Shown here: positions 1-6,000 of the stretch, one piece after another
Numbering within the stretch: position 1 is the first letter of the stretch
How the letters are laid out: every line of letters starts with the position of its first letter
Source: a virus
Taxonomy: Duplodnaviria; Heunggongvirae; Uroviricota; Caudoviricetes
Virus record (IMG/VR): IMGVR_UViG_2548877009_000010
Coordinates: 1 to 17,283 of that record
Strand: one strand, 5' to 3'
DNA length: 17,283 bases
Made by a program: the position numbers

Positions 1-3000
1 TCAAATGACCAGTTTTTTCCATTCCTTACCGCGTGCGTCGTTGTAAATATCGGTCATTTTTTGATTCGAATGGCCCAGCAAAATTTTGGTATCAATTCCC
101 TGTTCTCTGAACAATCGTTCTGATAAAGATCTCTGCTCATGGAAAGAGGGTGGGGTGCCATTAGCACGCCAGTTGTAATCCACAGAATCCCGGGCTTTTT
201 TAAATGCAACGGTTAACGTTGCTGGCTTAACCATCCCGCCGCGCTTAGCTGTCCCTTTAGCATGATGGTGGTGCAATAGCCACGGACTAAGAACGCAATC
301 GCGACAGGATGACACCACATCATCCAGGGTGAGATTTAATTTATCGCAACGCAGAGCCAGAGGGATGGCAATCCGGGTTCCTGTTTTTTGCTGTTCGACA
401 TGAAGATAACCATCCCTGATATCCGAAAATTTCATTTTGCAAATATCTGAAAGGCGCTGGCCTGTCATCAGTGCCAGCAGCATACCACGCTGTAAAAAGT
501 AACCATCCTTTTCCGCTGCATTATAAATCATCATCCACTCATCAAAGGTCAGTCGTTGCCGTGATATCCGTACCTGTGGTTTTTTTGCCGATTCTGCAGG
601 GTTAAAGCCAGGCGGGACATCGCCCGTTTGCTGGGCCTCCCGGAAAACATCAATCAGTACTTTCCTGAAAATTTGTCCCATTCTGTTATGTCCTTTTGCC
701 TTGTAATCTTCCAGCACCGATACCACATCTTTTACGGTTATGGCATCTAAAGGTCTGGTACCAAAACGTTCATCAAATACCCTGAGAGGGGATGCTTTCT
801 GTTTCAGTGTGTTGAGTTTGATCTCTCCGTTTTCATATCTTTCCTGTTGAATTTTTCGGTAACTATTCAGAAAAACAGAAACGGTTGATGAACCACCGGT
901 ATCACGAATAATTTTCTCCTGCAGAGTGAGCATTTGTTCCATTTGTTGCTTGGCAAGACGGCTGTTCGCTTCTGCTGCAATAGCTTCTGCCTGTTTCTGG
1001 TCAATACTGCCGAGCCCGTGATTTTTTCCTGTTATGGGATGCCTGTAACGCCAGTAAACTTTGTTATTTCTTTTGTCAAAATACGGAGATAATCCCGGAA
1101 CTTCAGTTTTATATTTTCGTGGGCGCGCCATCTTCCAGTATCCTCTTCAAAGCAGGGTGATCTGTGGCGATCACTTCCGGCTTGTTTACCATTCCGACAA
1201 AGCGAGCTCGAGGATCCACTCGCCAGTGTCTTCCAACTTTTTTGGGGAGAGGAAATATCATTCCGGCTTTAGCGTATTTACTTAACGTGCCCGGAGTAGG
1301 GACCGGTTCACTGAATTCCTCTTTTGCCCACTCAGTGAGCAGAATAAGTCTTGCCATGAGCGTTGTTCGCTAATCATGGCCGCCGCCACTATAGCTTGCG
1401 GACGACGACCGGGGTTGAACATTAAAAATCAGCCTGACTCGGGATCAGTTTTTGCCAGATTGCTGAAACTTGTTTTGCCTGGTGACGGGCATCGTCCAGC
1501 GCATTGTGGGGTACGCCTTCGAATGGAATAGCCATTCTGACATCAAAGCCAATGGCATTACCCAGTTCAACGATTGTGCGTACATCGCGATCGTTGTAGT
1601 AAAGCCACGGGCAGGGGATCCCCTGCCGTTCATATGAACGGCGTAAAATTACGTTGTCGAAGTTGGCTCCATTTCCCCATACCTGGACAAAACGCCCGCC
1701 GGAGTTTTTTTCGATAAATTCTATGAATAGCCGGAGAGCAACATCTAACGAGATTTCATCGGTAAAAATAGCGGATTGTGCTTCGCGTGATCGTTTCGCC
1801 CACCACTTTATTGTTTTACGGTCGATGATTCCGCCGGAGGTTTCCAGATCGATAGCTTTACTGAATTCAGGCCCCATCTCTCCGGTTGCCGGATCAAAAA
1901 ATGTACCGCCAATAGAGTTGATTGGCGCATCAGGATTTGTTCCCATCGTTTCAAGGTCGACCGACAGGTGAATCCACACTCTGCTGGTGGATGTGATAAC
2001 GTGATGACCGTTCACCGCAATTAAGGGATCTGCCGCCTCTCCAGTTTCACTATCGCTGGTGTGATGCTGATCGTTACCAGCATTCTCATTGTTCGGATGT
2101 TCAGCGCCTTCCATTTCCTCCGGATCATCTTCCTGAACTTCAGCCCTATTTTTTTCATCGAATGTTTCCTGGTATGTTGCGTCGCCCATTACCGCGCCAC
2201 AGTCAGGACAGTTGCCGTCGCCGGTCTGACCGCAGGCGGTGCAGACTTTTTCCGGTTCTTGTTGCACTTCTGGTTCAGGCAGTTTCGTTTCTGGCTCGTT
2301 TTGTAACGCATTTGGACTGTTTTGTTCCGCTTTCTGGTCGTTTTGTTCTGATTCGGGCTGGTTCTGGTTCACAGAATCGCGGGTTTCAATCCTCTTAACC
2401 CATTTCGGATCATTCGGGTCGCTAATCCCTTCAACAAATTCACCACGTGATGCAGCAAGCAATTTATCGGTGTCAGGCTGGCTGATATTGGCTGCCTGCA
2501 TAATTTTGTTTACTTCGTCAGCGGTAACTTTTACCGGCTCTGGTTGTTCTGAATCTTCTGCGGTATCTGTATTTTGCTGTAAGCCCGTATATGTGCCATT
2601 TTTTCGGGCAAAATATTCTTCTTTTGAGATTTCGGTACCACCGGCAGCCAGCGCCTTGTCCAGGCCAGAAAGTTTGTTTGCCCTGCCGTATTTTTCCCCG
2701 TCCTTATCGGTAAAGACGAAATAAAACGGTCCTTCACGCTCTACAGATGGTTCAGCTTCCACCAGGATTTCATTTTTTTGAGAATTGGATTCCGCCGTCT
2801 CCACTGGATCAGTTTGTGCTGCTGACGACAGGATAGCATCAGCAGAGCTCTGGTCTGTTTCTTCATGTTCAAACACGCCCTTTGTCGTCAGGTATTCGCT
2901 GATGTATTTGTTCAGTGCAACGGGATCTTTGTGAATATCGATCGGACGTTCGCGAACAAGGCCAAAAATAGTCTGACGGTCATAGGCAAGTGCTTCGGGC

Positions 3001-6000
3001 TGTTTGCGCATTGATGCTGAGATACGTTTCCAGTCTTCGCGATCCTTGTCGATAACCTCATTTGTCGCCCAGCGATGGATGGTACCGTCAATGTTTCCTG
3101 CATCCACATCACCGGGCCAGAGGGCGCAGGCCAGTTCATTGTCGAGTGTTTTCCATGTCTGTTTGTATTCGCGGCGAACGGCAACAGTGACAGCCCCGGT
3201 TTTTTCAGCAGCGTTTTCAGTGTTCTGTTGGTTTACTCTGGAACGGGCGATATCAACGACAGATATGTATTTCCCGGTTTCCTTGCGTTCACTTTCGCGA
3301 CGTTTTTTCCAGATGCGCATCTCTGCCTGAATTTCGGGCCATTTAGCAGCAGGTTTACATTTATGCTTAACCCACCCGATGGCATGCAGCTTAAGCTCCG
3401 GATACATGGCGTTAACTTCTGGCATCTTCATCAACGCTTCAACGATATGGCCGTCGAATGTTGCCATGTCTTCCTGCAACAATTCCTGAGCGCTAATCAC
3501 CATATCAACAGTGATGTTTTCACATGCGTCGAACTTAACCATGACGGCGTTCTGTACTTCAGGGGCCAGATTGTCAAAAGTGATGTTCATCGGATCGGAT
3601 TCGGGTTCGACCGGGACAAAGGACGCAGACTCCTCATCCCAGCGGTTTTCCTGCATATATTCGGTATCCCAGGAATCGAGGGCAGGGCGGGGTATGCCGG
3701 GTTTATCCTTGCAGACAATAAATTTATAAGCGCAGTCCTGAGCTGCCGGGAATTGCTCCAGAAATTGCCAGTGAAATTTTGCGCGTGCGCGACGCTTATC
3801 ACCGGCTTCAATGGCAGTGGCCACCGCAACAGCGCTATCTTCTTCTATGGCCTGTTCGTCAGGAATAGCAGCGCAAATAAAGATTTTATTCATTGTGTTT
3901 TAACCTCATGACAGATTTCAGGGTGAACGAATCCCTGCCATTGCTGGCATTTTTAATCCGTTGGTATGGCGTTAATATGGCTGGCGGGTTATCCAGCCGG
4001 TGTTTCGTTATTCAGGTACAGCGATACTTTGTTTAACGGGAGACATTCACCGGAAATTTTTTGCTCGTCTCTTGCCTGATGGCAGGATTCTTTACTGGCA
4101 TAAATTCCGGTAATCACATTCTGTGGCTCACCTGTTATCAGAAAAACCGTCATCATCAGTGCAAACGCTGAACTCACTGCTGCCCTCCGAAAATGCCAAG
4201 TTCAAGAAGGGCAATTCTGGAGAGAATGGAATTATCATTGAGAAGATAAGGCTCATATTTTCTCATCCTGATGGCGTCCTCAGTAAACTCCCGGTTACTG
4301 AGCAGAATACCAATATTAAAACACCCTTCAGACGTATTAACGTTTGGTAGTGACGTTTCCATTATCGCGTCCTCAACAATGAATTTTGTGATGTGGTGCC
4401 TGGTGCCTCCAGGTGACGTTAACCAGTAAACAATTAACGTCGGAATACAGAATCACCCATAACGCTGTTTTTAGCTTTAACTGTTCCGCGTGCGCTTAGC
4501 CGCATTCACCGCATCACAAAATACACTTTAAAAATGGCGGATATCCATTTCTGCCGAATCACCAGAAAAGTGATAACAGAGGTTGTTGTGGCGGTGTTGT
4601 CACTCAGGCGTATGGTCAACCTGACAACCCGGTGCATTTTCTGGAACAATGGAGGAAGCCCCAGCCATACTTACCGCCGCGCCATTTCGCGGATTGCCAC
4701 AACCGGAAGCGCACGATCGAATTAAATTTAACGACGACATATACAGAGAGACTAACTTCGCCGTGCGCTTTCGTGTTATGCCCTGACTTTTCAGGGATAT
4801 GTTCTTTCAGTAAACTGTCAGTGCCGGATTCTTATCCGTGTCCGGCGCACGTGCTCTACCTCACCCGTGAATAAATTAATGATTAATTGATATTTTGTTG
4901 TTTGATTCAACTTTCCCATCGGATGTGTGATGCTTTAAATCACAGGAGTTAATACTGCTTGCTGTAAAATGATTTTCAAGGGGAGCTATTCGAATCCCTT
5001 TCTTTTTCATTAACAAGCCAAATCCTTTATTAATGATGTCCATTAATTCCAGAAAGTATTTTTCATGTAAATCCTGTTTATCAGAGAGCTGCTTCTCTTC
5101 GTACAGCCCGATAAAAGCTCGGCGTACGTTACCGGATATATTATCGATGGTTTCTTTTTCTACGGTACTCAGGTCAAGAGTGGCCAGTTGAGAACGAACT
5201 ATATTCGCTGCCATTTCCTGGAATGGTACTGGTAAATCTTTAAATTCCATCGTCAACCTCATCAGTCAGTGTTTCTGGCTAACCAGCGACGCGCGCCAGC
5301 TTCAGTTTTAAAAGTTTTGCTTCTGGTATACGTCATCGCGGTAAACGTGCCGTCCTGGTTAGGGAACACACCGCATACCAGAGATTCGTTGTTGCCAAGA
5401 TTGAGCGTATCCATGTTGACCTCATTTCCCCTTAACGCCGGGGCGCGGAACTAAAAACCTGCTGCGCTGTTATATAAAGTGTTCCCGCCGTCATGTTCAT
5501 ACGCCTCGGGCTGGCTACTTAACCCCTGACCACTGCCGGGTAACTCGAAGTATTGCCTGGCGTTCTGTGGGATGGGGTTGGAATAAAATAAAGTTTAGAA
5601 AAATGAACTTTACGAGTCAATGTTTTTTTATCAAAACATGACAGCAGGCAGCTGTTAAGCCATCAATATGATGGCGTACAGTAAATTAAGGGGATTAGTT
5701 AAATATCTTGTTGAATTTTAAAGCATACACCTAAAATGCGGGATATATCATCCAGCATGATTGATGGGTAGCGTGGATTTGAGGGAACTAAGAGGATGTC
5801 AGGTCCTTCTATTTCCAATTTACGAATTACTGGTGTAGTTGTTCCTTTTGGTAATGCTAGAACAATATTGCCATGTTGTGCGGTTCGATCTGGGTCGACA
5901 AAGACCGTTGATCCATTCGGAATTGATACACTTCCGCCTGCGGCAGACATACTATCGCTCTCTAGAACTACTGCAAATGTATTGACAGAAGTTTCACCAG

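What the first reader, a model, noticed from the sequence alone, without database searches (positions are those of the whole stretch)
1422..3893. 823-aa composite protein with a DnaQ-like 3'-5' exonuclease domain and no neighbouring annealase
Lambdoid recombination modules normally pair a 5'-3' exonuclease with Bet/RecT/Erf. Here the only nuclease is a DEDDh 3'-5' exonuclease domain fused to about 600 aa of unrecognised N-terminal and acidic linker sequence, and no annealase-like ORF lies between it and xis. The protein's role (recombination, replication, or nucleic-acid-targeting defence or anti-defence) is unclear from sequence.
Basis: partly seen in the sequence, partly recalled or inferred. 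Interest (0 to 1): 0.5.

Follow-up and report, generated by a model that had tools for sequence, protein, structure and literature searches.

The report
RecE-like scaffold carrying a 3'-5' exonuclease
This prophage gene is the intact form of the E. coli K-12 pseudogene ydfE: it has the large front end of the recombination nuclease RecE, but its cutting domain is replaced by one that chews DNA from the opposite end, and no annealing partner is encoded; the gene is very common in E. coli and has never been studied.

Summary
The 823-aa ORF (1422-3893, minus strand) is real, intact and under purifying selection. The DEDDh domain and the missing annealase are both confirmed.

The "unrecognised" 600 aa are recognisable:
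- aa 1-255 are 86% identical to the K-12 Qin pseudogene ydfE.
- aa 262-625 are homologous to Rac RecE 278-591. The match stops exactly where RecE's 5'-3' nuclease domain begins.

So this is a RecE-architecture protein whose PD-(D/E)XK head is replaced by a T4-DexA/Rv2179c-type 3'-5' exonuclease.

Across 186 family representatives, two N-terminal modules combine with either head in all four ways. In the loci I sampled, RecE-type heads are followed by recT in 4 of 4 lineages, and DEDDh heads in 0 of 6.

Viable phages carrying the gene (Tritos, mEp460_ev081) have no recombinase but 9-11 Chi sites, against 0 in lambda.

The gene is the last one of the CI-repressed dicB-ydfD operon. Its DEDDh segment occurs in 4044 of 5426 complete E. 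coli genomes.

Best reading, which is inferred: an early-expressed, scaffold-tethered trimmer of DNA 3' ends in phages that rely on host RecBCD-Chi-RecA. It is not a RecET-type recombinase. The biochemical activity and the physiological role are untested.

The parts
1422..3893 (-). Complete CDS of 823 aa: the intact ydfE-type 'exonuclease' gene, with a RecE-like scaffold and a DEDDh head.
   Evidence: PHROG 2082 matches full length. 83.8% identical, full length, in viable phage Tritos. dN/dS over the whole gene is 0.21.
3228..3893 (-). N-terminal module A (YdfE_N type), aa 1-222: an alpha/beta domain (aa 1-100) followed by a helical domain (aa 105-222).
2865..3161 (-). Middle helical module, aa 245-343, shared by the YdfE-type and RecE-type proteins.
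   Evidence: BLASTP against RecE 278-~360. Found in nearly all long family representatives. pLDDT 87-94. dN/dS 0.09.
2589..2741 (-). Mini-domain, aa 385-435: two beta-hairpins plus two helices. It is absent from K-12 RecE.
   Evidence: AF2 pLDDT 91-95. It falls in a gap of the RecE alignment. dN/dS 0.08.
2022..2471 (-). Acidic, mostly disordered linker, aa 475-624, homologous to Rac RecE 455-590. It contains a Cys4 knuckle at aa 551-565 (nt 2199-2243).
   Evidence: 77% nucleotide identity to K-12 recE, ending at the junction with the nuclease domain. aa 441-629 carry 45 acidic and 13 basic residues. The Cys4 motif occurs in only 1 of 56 long representatives plus K-12 RecE.
1455..1970 (-). C-terminal DEDDh 3'-5' exonuclease domain (Rv2179c-like / T4 DexA-like), aa 642-813, with catalytic residues D646, E648, D746, H796 and D801.
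   Evidence: Pfam PF16473, E=1.8e-60. phmmer hits PDB 8KEN/8KEL, T4 DexA. The best Foldseek match of the AF2 model is DexA 8KEL at E=3e-8, followed by RNase T. Catalytic residue alignment. dN/dS 0.21.
1983..1990 (+). Chi site (GCTGGTGG) inside the exonuclease gene, on the antisense strand.
   Evidence: A Chi site also lies inside the exo gene of Tritos and mEp460_ev081, at the matching distance from the gene's 3' end.
1109..1357 (-). Excisionase gene, 64 nt downstream of the exonuclease gene. It occupies the position that recT holds after recE in Rac.
1..1131 (-). Integrase gene. The prophage sits at the ompW site.
3989..4362 (-). Upstream operon partners: dicB (4174-4362) and the ydfD-like DUF1482 gene (3989-4177).
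   Evidence: The order dicB-ydfD-ydfE is the same in K-12 Qin, where these genes form the DicA-repressed dicBF operon (PMC10448788).
5592..6337 (-). CI/LexA-family repressor gene (5699-6337) and a pL-like promoter match (5592-5634) that would drive the early-left operon ending in the exonuclease gene.
   Evidence: The promoter is only a consensus match. No consensus promoter lies directly upstream of the exonuclease gene.

Best explanation
Shown. The gene encodes a three-part chimera.
1. A YdfE-type N-terminal scaffold of four folded modules with no recognisable fold. It is the intact version of the K-12 Qin pseudogene ydfE.
2. An acidic, disordered linker with a Cys4 knuckle, which shares recent ancestry with Rac recE.
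3. A catalytically complete DEDDh 3'-5' exonuclease of the T4-DexA/Rv2179c family. It sits exactly where RecE carries its PD-(D/E)XK 5'-3' nuclease.

The gene is the last one of the repressor-controlled early-left operon (dicB-ydfD-ydfE-xis-int).

Inferred. The protein is made early after induction or infection. The scaffold brings the nuclease to DNA ends, as it presumably does for RecE. There the head removes 3'-ended strands or 3' tails and flaps.

Such an enzyme destroys the 3' tails that RecT-type annealing needs, so it cannot be half of a RecET/Red-type two-component recombinase. That would explain why recT accompanies only the RecE-type heads.

The phages that carry the gene have no recombinase, no Gam and no Abc2, but are rich in correctly biased Chi sites. 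They therefore most likely depend on host RecBCD-Chi-RecA. I propose the exonuclease is an accessory DNA-end processor in that setting. T4 DexA plays a comparable part in double-strand-break repair during intron homing.
For: Architecture:
- Pfam, NCBIfam and BLASTP results.
- Identity with ydfE.
- Nucleotide homology with recE ends at the domain junction.

Head:
- All catalytic residues are present.
- The closest solved structures are DexA, then RNase T.
- DexA is a 3'-5' DNA exonuclease (PMC12153337).

Modularity:
- N-module A or B combines with a DEDDh or a RecE-type head in all four ways among 186 representatives.

Partner rule:
- RecT lies immediately downstream of RecE-type heads in 4 of 4 lineages (with 84, 78, 79).
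- RecT is absent after DEDDh heads in 6 of 6 lineages.

Recombination context of the head:
- A stand-alone homologue, 56% identical, sits between ssb and abc2, next to erf, in the Rec module of phage g341c. PMC12315714 independently counts the epsilon34 DnaQ gene as a Rec-module member.

Host dependence:
- Tritos has 11 Chi sites (9:2 strand bias) and mEp460_ev081 has 9 (7:2), against 0 in lambda.
- Neither has a tblastn match to RecT, Erf, Bet, Exo, Gam, NinB or Abc2.
- The window has 5 Chi sites against 0.53 expected.
- This matches the 'no Rec module, high Chi' class of PMC12315714.

Other:
- Operon membership: PMC10448788 and gene order.
- Every folded module is under purifying selection.
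- Loss of ExoI, a 3'-5' exonuclease, enhances RecET-mediated linear DNA assembly, judging from the title of PMC13048471 listed; I did not open that paper.
Against: - No activity, polarity or substrate (DNA or RNA) has been measured for this protein or for any member of its family.
- The function of the scaffold is unknown even in RecE. It is only known to enhance linear-linear recombination (Fu et al. 2012, cited in PMC11611040).
- 3'-5' exonucleases usually inhibit homologous recombination (noted in PMC12315714), so a positive role in recombination is not obvious.
- PMC12315714 explicitly declines to count int-proximal DnaQ-type genes as Rec-module genes.
- The partner rule rests on 10 sampled lineages, not on a census.
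- In K-12, transcripts reaching ydfE were not detected (PMC10448788), although that copy is disrupted.
- The founding member of the Pfam family, Rv2179c, is an exoribonuclease.
Confidence: 0.5

Rival explanations
1. Anti-phage defence or superinfection-exclusion nuclease of the HREX type. In this reading the DexA-like head selectively degrades the modified DNA (for example 5hmC) of incoming T-even phages and so protects the lysogen.
For: An E. coli DexA homologue, EcD, was reported to cleave only 5hmC-DNA and to protect against T4 (PMC12153337). The head belongs to the same Pfam family, and DexA is its closest solved structure. The DexA tetramerisation residue D90 is replaced by V718, as it is lost in EcD. 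The DEDDh segment is kept in 4044 of 5426 E. coli genomes, often in defective prophages (PMC8112680). That pattern would fit a benefit to the host.
Against: - EcD is a different, stand-alone protein. Its cloning primers encode MIDTET...TIPETYD, and they do not match the window.
- The 5hmC-reading residues are not kept. DexA W152 aligns with Y766, and D169 lies in a DexA-only insertion. This alignment is at low identity.
- No PADLOC model matches.
- The gene lies inside the repressor-controlled early-left operon, with no consensus promoter of its own. It should therefore be silent in a lysogen.
- The same scaffold carries RecE's recombination nuclease.
Confidence: 0.15
2. Counter-defence or inter-element competition factor made early in lytic growth. 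By removing 3' ends it could disable host or rival-prophage nucleic acids, such as the 3' tails used by RecET/Red of co-resident prophages, retron msDNA, or primers and signals of defence systems.
For: The gene is in an early-operon position. E. coli genomes carry up to 7 copies of the DEDDh segment alongside many other lambdoid prophages. 3'-5' exonuclease activity antagonises annealing-based recombination (title of PMC13048471). The modular swapping of heads resembles arms-race loci.
Against: There is no direct evidence and no known anti-defence protein with this architecture. The stand-alone homologue sits inside a canonical Rec module together with an annealase (erf), which argues against a purely anti-annealing role.
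Confidence: 0.12
3. An RNA-directed enzyme. As in Rv2179c, the head would be an exoribonuclease that trims or degrades RNA 3' ends, for example processing early-left transcripts or host RNAs.
For: The Pfam family is named after the exoribonuclease Rv2179c. RNase T and oligoribonuclease are among the structural neighbours. PGAP names some copies '3'-5' exoribonuclease'. The operon makes processed RNAs such as DicF in Qin (PMC10448788).
Against: The closest solved relative, by both sequence and fold, is the DNA exonuclease DexA. The scaffold is shared with a dsDNA exonuclease. A close stand-alone homologue lies between ssb and abc2 in a DNA recombination module. RNase T also acts on DNA.
Confidence: 0.08
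4. An ordinary RecE-type recombinase whose annealase is simply encoded elsewhere, or a decaying remnant with no function.
For: Many phage records annotate the gene as 'exodeoxyribonuclease VIII'. NCBIfam PRK09709 gives E=6e-82. The K-12 copy is a pseudogene.
Against: - The score is 276 bits against a cut-off of 1269, and the match covers only the linker and middle regions.
- There is no PD-(D/E)XK domain.
- No annealase is found in the window or in the complete genomes of Tritos and mEp460_ev081.
- dN/dS is 0.08-0.21 in all folded modules, and all catalytic residues are intact.
Confidence: 0.03

Closest known systems
RecE (exonuclease VIII) of the Rac prophage, E. coli K-12
   Same: - Same overall plan: a large N-terminal region of unknown function, an acidic linker, then a C-terminal nuclease.
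- aa 262-625 are homologous to RecE 278-591 (E=3e-62).
- The linker with its Cys4 knuckle is 77% identical at nucleotide level.
- Same place in the prophage map: late in the early-left operon, near xis-int.
   Different: - The head is a DEDDh 3'-5' exonuclease, not the PD-(D/E)XK 5'-3' nuclease of RecE 564-866.
- The first 260 aa are of the YdfE_N type, not PF06630 Exonuc_VIII.
- There is an extra mini-domain at aa 385-435.
- No recT follows the gene.
- It falls far below the NCBIfam equivalog cut-off.
YdfE (b1577), pseudogene of the Qin prophage, E. coli K-12
   Same: It is 86% identical over aa 1-255 and lies in the same operon order, dicB-ydfD-ydfE-int. This protein is the intact orthologue.
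   Different: The K-12 copy is cut by IS2E after about 255 codons, so it lacks the middle module, the linker and the nuclease head. No function has been described for YdfE.
T4 DexA (exonuclease A; PDB 8KEL/8KEN)
   Same: The DEDDh head belongs to the same Pfam family and keeps all five catalytic residues. DexA is the best hit among solved structures by both sequence and fold. DexA is a 3'-5' DNA exonuclease that takes part in host-DNA scavenging and in break repair during intron homing (PMC12153337).
   Different: DexA is a stand-alone 227-aa protein. It has extra loops, including the one that holds the 5hmC-reading D169. The tetramer residue D90 is V718 here, and W152 is Y766. Identity is about 20-25%.
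Stand-alone DnaQ-type nucleases of lambdoid and P22-like phages (g341c/epsilon34 gene 29; 118970_sal3; PY54 gene 51)
   Same: They are 52-56% identical to the head domain. In 118970_sal3 the gene also lies directly before xis-int. In g341c it lies in a Rec module in the order erf-ssb-nuclease-abc2. PMC12315714 describes both placements.
   Different: They have no scaffold or linker, and in g341c the gene is accompanied by an annealase.
Rv2179c of Mycobacterium tuberculosis (founder of PF16473)
   Same: Same Pfam family, matched full length at profile positions 2-177 of 177.
   Different: Rv2179c is a stand-alone exoribonuclease of a bacterial chromosome. It did not appear among the phmmer hits to solved structures even at E<=10.

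Membership tests
RecE / exodeoxyribonuclease VIII (NCBIfam NF007259 PRK09709, equivalog) | Whole-protein score above the curated cut-off (1269 bits). | tested here: not met
   276 bits. Only aa 453-626 and one further stretch match.
RecE / exodeoxyribonuclease VIII | C-terminal PD-(D/E)XK 5'-3' nuclease domain (RecE 564-866; PF12684). | tested here: not met
   No Pfam hit. BLASTP homology to RecE stops at RecE residue 591 and nucleotide homology at residue 590. phmmer with RecE 592-866 hits other family members but not this cluster.
RecE / exodeoxyribonuclease VIII | N-terminal Exonuc_VIII domain (PF06630). | tested here: not met
   No PF06630 hit at E<=1. Relatives P0140, P0218 and P0242 do carry it.
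RecE / exodeoxyribonuclease VIII | Middle and linker region homologous to RecE 278-591. | tested here: met
   BLASTP E=3e-62; roughly 80% identical (estimated by eye from the alignment) over aa 470-625.
Two-component SynExo recombinase (RecET / lambda Red type) | An annealase gene (RecT, Bet or Erf) adjacent to the exonuclease gene. | tested here: not met
   There is a 64-nt gap and then xis. The window holds no annealase, and neither do the Tritos and mEp460_ev081 genomes. RecT is present after RecE-type heads in 4 of 4 lineages.
Two-component SynExo recombinase | 5'-3' polarity that yields 3' tails. | not testable with these tools
   The head belongs to the DEDDh superfamily, whose characterised members act 3'-5' (established knowledge). 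Polarity needs an assay.
DEDDh exonucleases, Rv2179c-like family (PF16473) | Pfam gathering score reached over the full domain. | tested here: met
   204.1 bits against 27; profile positions 2-177 of 177.
DEDDh exonucleases, Rv2179c-like family (PF16473) | The five catalytic residues D, E, D, H, D. | tested here: met
   D646, E648, D746, H796 and D801 align with DexA D7, E9, D119, H186 and D191, and are conserved in 7 of 8 family heads.
DEDDh exonucleases, Rv2179c-like family (PF16473) | RNase-H-like DnaQ fold. | tested here: met
   AF2 model with pLDDT 69. The best Foldseek hits are DexA 8KEL at E=3e-8, RNase T and the Cas2-DnaQ domain, all with probability 1.00.
DEDDh exonucleases, Rv2179c-like family (PF16473) | 3'-5' exonuclease activity, and whether the substrate is DNA or RNA. 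| not testable with these tools
   Needs purified protein.
YdfE family (Pfam PF27430 YdfE_N + PF27432 YdfE_C) | Matches to both family models. | tested here: met
   The models are not in the local Pfam copy. Precomputed hits on proteins 97-100% identical to this one list PF27430 + PF27432 + PF16473, and the names are given. There is also a direct 86% identity to K-12 YdfE.
HREX / EcD-type defence exonuclease (PMC12153337) | Same protein as EcD, or a close orthologue of it. | tested here: not met
   The EcD primers encode MIDTET...TIPETYD. There is no match in the window with up to 3 mismatches. This protein ends ...IPSQADF.
HREX / EcD-type defence exonuclease | Residues that read 5hmC (DexA W152 and D169) are kept, and the tetramer residue D90 is lost. 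| tested here: inconclusive
   W152 aligns with Y766, D169 falls in a DexA-only insertion, and D90 aligns with V718. The alignment is at about 20% identity.
Known anti-phage defence systems (PADLOC-DB 2.0) | Match to any defence-protein model. | tested here: not met
   0 families at E<=0.01.

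The most novel reading that the evidence does not exclude
The YdfE/RecE N-terminal region may be a nuclease-agnostic platform that targets DNA ends, onto which lambdoid phages mount heads of opposite polarity according to their recombination strategy. A 5'-3' head plus RecT would give autonomous annealing-based recombination. A 3'-5' head without an annealase would suit phages that hand their DNA ends to host RecBCD-Chi-RecA. In the second case the head might erase 3' tails so that ends stay blunt enough for RecBCD to load, or so that rival annealing pathways cannot use them. 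If so, this would be a previously undescribed 'polarity switch' in phage recombination modules, and it would give the 40-year-old unexplained RecE N-terminus a testable function.
Probability: 0.2. Interest if true: 0.65.

Novelty: new variant of a known kind. Interest (0 to 1): 0.4.

Why it matters
**Prevalence.** The head-coding segment is present in about 75% of complete E. coli genomes, in up to 7 copies. The gene is also carried by viable lambdoid phages and by the ompW prophages of EHEC. Even so, I found no functional study of it.

**Annotation.** Many records call it 'exodeoxyribonuclease VIII'. That name predicts the wrong polarity and a recombineering ability the protein almost certainly lacks.

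**Biology.** The same scaffold carries nucleases of opposite polarity, and recT follows only one of them. This offers a natural experiment for two questions:
- What does the long-unexplained N-terminal two-thirds of RecE do?
- How do recombinase-less, Chi-rich lambdoid phages handle their DNA ends?

**K-12.** It also explains what the orphan pseudogene ydfE once was.

Tried and rejected
- **Solved structures, by sequence.** phmmer of the full protein against PDB sequences found nothing at E<=0.01. Only the isolated head found DexA.
- **Systematic census of neighbours.** I sampled lineages with the look-up of encoding contigs instead, so the recT rule rests on 10 lineages.
- **Is this protein the published defence nuclease EcD?** Rejected from the primer sequences.
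- **Is the Cys4 knuckle a family-wide zinc module?** Rejected. It occurs in 1 of 56 long representatives plus K-12 RecE.
- **PADLOC.** No defence model matches.
- **C-termini of the 'neither' type.** Local Pfam finds no domain in seven such relatives (P0125, P0129, P0131, P0132, P0144, P0161, P0192). These are probably the 'RecE-2' proteins of PMC12315714.
- **First protein search.** The first homologous-protein run returned almost only near-identical E. coli fragments and added little beyond the Pfam labels.
- **Supplements.** The supplementary tables of PMC12315714 are not held.
- **Structure job.** It was rerun without DexA.

Full report

Yes. The minus strand of 1422-3893 holds an 823-codon ORF starting at an ATG. 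A GAGG lies 10 nt upstream of the start.

Pfam finds one confident domain, Rv2179c-like 3'-5' exo(ribo)nuclease PF16473. It covers aa 642-813 at E=1.8e-60 and spans the whole profile.

The window is the left arm of a lambdoid prophage inserted next to ompW in E. coli. The closest genome is 98.6% identical. The gene order on the minus strand is:
- int (1-1131)
- xis (1109-1357)
- the exonuclease gene (1422-3893)
- a ydfD-like DUF1482 gene (3989-4177)
- dicB (4174-4362)
- two small ORFs
- a CI/LexA-family repressor (5699-6337)

The early-right genes are on the plus strand: cro-like, cII/YdaT-like, O-like, P-like, RusA and Q.

Only 64 nt separate the exonuclease stop codon from xis. PHROG scans of 20 other ORFs found no annealase anywhere in the 17.3 kb.

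The ORF is a functional gene. Against its orthologue in phage Tritos (84% amino-acid identity), dN/dS is:
- 0.16 for the N module
- 0.09 for the middle module
- 0.08 for the mini-domain
- 0.21 for the nuclease head
- 0.36 for the acidic linker
- about 1.5 for one disordered spacer only

**2. What are the '600 unrecognised residues'?**

NCBIfam's RecE model (PRK09709) matches at E=6e-82. The score is only 276 bits against a cut-off of 1269.

BLASTP against K-12 RecE aligns aa 262-625 with RecE 278-591 (E=3e-62). Identity is roughly 80% (by eye) across aa 470-625, which includes a CxxC-x7-CxxC knuckle and a very acidic tail.

At nucleotide level the homology runs from codon 475 to codon 624 (77% identity). 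It stops at RecE codon 590. That lies a few residues upstream of the start of the crystallised nuclease fragment, which begins at about residue 606 (my recollection of PDB 3H4R), and inside the 564-866 nuclease domain as delimited in PMC11611040.

The first 255 residues are 86% identical to the product of the K-12 Qin pseudogene ydfE. That copy is truncated by IS2E and sits in the same dicB-ydfD-ydfE-int order.

Precomputed Pfam labels on near-identical database proteins give PF27430 (YdfE_N) and PF27432 (YdfE_C). These are newer families, absent from the local Pfam copy.

An AlphaFold2 model of aa 1-440 is confident (mean pLDDT 82.6). It shows four folded modules separated by disordered linkers:
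- alpha/beta, aa 1-100
- helical, aa 105-222
- helical, aa 245-343
- a small mini-domain of two beta-hairpins and two helices, aa 385-435

**3. The head**

The C-terminal domain keeps all five DEDDh catalytic residues: D646, E648, D746, H796 and D801.

By sequence, its only relatives among solved structures are 8KEN and 8KEL, T4 DexA. By fold, a model of aa 600-823 matches DexA best (E=3e-8), followed by RNase T, the Cas2-DnaQ domain and oligoribonuclease.

DexA is a 3'-5' DNA exonuclease. It is used for scavenging host DNA and for break processing during intron homing (PMC12153337).

That paper also reports an E. coli homologue, EcD, that protects against T4 by cutting only 5hmC-DNA. I checked whether EcD is this protein, and it is not. 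Its cloning primers encode MIDTET...TIPETYD, and they do not match the window.

The 5hmC-reading residues of DexA are not clearly kept here. W152 aligns with Y766, and D169 falls in a DexA-only loop.

**4. The family is modular, and the partner follows the head**

A search of 1.84 billion representative proteins with aa 1-440 found only 186 relatives, so the family is narrow.

I classified the long relatives by phmmer, using pieces of this protein and of K-12 RecE as queries. The family has:
- two alternative N-modules: type A as here, and type B as in K-12 RecE (PF06630)
- a shared middle module
- a variable linker
- a head that is DEDDh, RecE-type PD-(D/E)XK, or neither

All four combinations of N-module and nuclease head exist. 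The Cys4 knuckle is not a family trait. It occurs in 1 of 56 long representatives plus K-12 RecE.

I sampled the genomic context of independent lineages.
- **RecE-type head.** A RecT gene follows immediately in 4 of 4 cases: K-12 Rac, P0128 (with RecT confirmed by Pfam at E=2e-36), P0174 and P0224.
- **DEDDh head.** The next genes are xis and int, with no RecT, in 6 of 6 cases: this window and its near-identical copy, Tritos, vB_EcoS-689R5, P0140, P0218 and P0242.
- **No recognisable head.** These also lack RecT. They are probably the 'RecE-2' proteins of PMC12315714.

This is what mechanism predicts. RecT loads on the 3' tail left by a 5'-3' exonuclease, whereas a 3'-5' exonuclease removes that tail. 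Consistent with this, the title of PMC13048471 (listed; I did not open the paper) reports that a xonA (ExoI) mutation enhances RecET-mediated linear DNA assembly.

**5. What kind of phage carries it?**

The gene is in viable phages. Seventeen phage records hold a full-length copy.

The complete genomes of Tritos and mEp460_ev081 have no tblastn match to RecT, Erf, Bet, lambda Exo, Gam, NinB or Abc2. They carry 11 and 9 Chi sites with a 9:2 and 7:2 strand bias. Lambda has none.

The window itself has 5 Chi sites against 0.53 expected from shuffles. One of them lies inside the exonuclease gene, and Tritos and mEp460_ev081 each have a Chi site inside their exo gene at the matching distance from its 3' end.

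This is the 'no Rec module, high Chi' class of lambdoid phages. Zheng et al. (PMC12315714) showed that growth of such phages is helped by RecBCD. The same paper notes 'sporadic' DnaQ-type nuclease genes lying very near int, outside recognisable Rec modules, and leaves their role open.

Closely related stand-alone heads (52-56% identical) occur in two kinds of place:
- directly before xis-int, as in Salmonella phage 118970_sal3
- inside a canonical P22-type Rec module, in the order erf-ssb-nuclease-abc2, as in phage g341c

The second placement ties this nuclease lineage to DNA recombination rather than to RNA metabolism.

**6. Expression**

In K-12 Qin, ydfA-B-C, dicF, dicB, ydfD and ydfE form one operon repressed by the CI-like DicA (PMC10448788). 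Transcripts reaching the disrupted ydfE were not detected there.

In the window, a pL-like promoter match lies just downstream of the repressor gene. No consensus promoter precedes the exonuclease gene.

I therefore infer early lytic expression and silence in the lysogen. This is not shown.

**7. Most likely mechanism**

Shown:
- the architecture
- an intact active site
- purifying selection
- the operon position
- the rule linking head type to recT
- the Chi-rich, recombinase-less genomes

Inferred: the scaffold delivers the head to DNA ends, as it presumably does for RecE. The head trims 3'-ended strands. The enzyme serves as an accessory end-processor in phages that rely on host RecBCD-Chi-RecA, and it is not part of an annealing recombinase.

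I put this at about 0.5. The rivals are:
- an HREX-like defence nuclease (0.15)
- a counter-defence or inter-prophage competition factor (0.12)
- an RNA-directed exonuclease (0.08)
- an ordinary RecE or a dead gene (0.03)

**8. Comparison with known families, and novelty**

The protein works on the plan of RecE, but it is not a member of the RecE equivalog. The nuclease domain, the score cut-off, the PF06630 module and the recT partner were all tested and not met.

It is a member of the PF16473 DEDDh family and of the YdfE family.

As a gene family it is already in the databases: PHROG 2082, the Pfam families, and PGAP's 'exonuclease'. It is also extremely common. The head-coding segment is in 4044 of 5426 complete E. 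coli genomes, in up to 7 copies.

In the literature I searched I found no account of four things:
- any functional study
- the domain-swap relationship to RecE
- the rule linking the head type to recT
- the identification of K-12 ydfE as its remnant

I therefore rate it a new variant of a known kind, of moderate interest.

**9. Caveats**

- The recT rule rests on 10 lineages, not on a census.
- The alignment to DexA is at about 20% identity.
- The C-terminal model is of only moderate confidence (pLDDT 69).
- The promoter call is a consensus match only.
- Nothing about activity or polarity has been measured.

Noticed in passing
window 16561-16809 (+), after 15462-16520 (+): Three tRNA genes lie in a row directly downstream of a type II-like DNA methyltransferase gene in the late-regulatory region. 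This arrangement is typical of EHEC lambdoid prophages. The near-identical genome annotates them as Ile, Arg, Arg.
   Followed up: partly
window 4330-4537 (-): dicB is present, but no DicF sRNA reaches the Rfam gathering score anywhere in the window. The stretch upstream of dicB instead gives a sub-threshold match to the Salmonella sRNA family STnc100 (32.6 bits against 47, E=7.5e-5). Phage Tritos does have an annotated DicF at the equivalent place.
   Followed up: partly
window 1983, 13018, 15339 (+); 13476, 16154 (-): The window has five Chi sites against 0.53 expected from shuffles. The viable relatives Tritos and mEp460_ev081 have 11 and 9 Chi sites with a strong top-strand bias, against none in lambda. 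One Chi site lies inside the exonuclease gene in the window, in Tritos and in mEp460_ev081.
   Followed up: yes
window 7126-8190 (+) and 7982-8644 (+): The O-like (DUF1376/primosomal) ORF and the P-like helicase-loader ORF overlap by about 200 nt in different frames, and both match the single family phrog_15931. Either the true start of the P-like gene is further downstream, or some relatives carry a fused gene.
   Followed up: no
window 2199-2243 (-), aa 551-565: The Cys4 knuckle CTACGQTGDGNCPDC is shared almost letter for letter with K-12 RecE 517-531, but it is absent from 55 of 56 other long family members. It seems to be a recent linker insert exchanged between E. coli prophages, not a conserved functional module.
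   Followed up: yes
L015:5079-5999 (E. coli K-12 Qin, ydfE): The K-12 pseudogene ydfE is the first 255 codons of this gene family, cut off by IS2E. K-12 therefore lacks the nuclease head that about 75% of complete E. coli genomes carry.
   Followed up: yes
phage records OV696610, PV340562, ON470583, LR597641 and others: Many deposited phage genomes annotate this gene as 'exodeoxyribonuclease VIII' or 'exonuclease VIII, ds DNA exonuclease'. That is a misannotation, because the RecE nuclease domain is absent.
   Followed up: yes
representative protein P0213 (head at about aa 564-750): One distant lineage has K in place of catalytic E648 and A in place of D746. Its DEDDh head is therefore probably inactive although the protein is otherwise intact.
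   Followed up: no
L018:6223-6717: A relative with no recognisable nuclease head (P0131) is followed by a Sipho_Gp157 gene instead of recT or xis. The C-terminal 250-300 aa of seven such 'headless' relatives have no Pfam match.
   Followed up: no
window 4876-5262 (-) and 11839-12297 (+): These two ORFs, of 128 aa and 152 aa, have no Pfam or PADLOC match. [quoted passage not shown]
   Followed up: no
window 12793-14214 (+): A DUF968/HNH-type endonuclease gene lies immediately upstream of RusA and Q. These are the only other DNA-cutting functions in the window.
   Followed up: no
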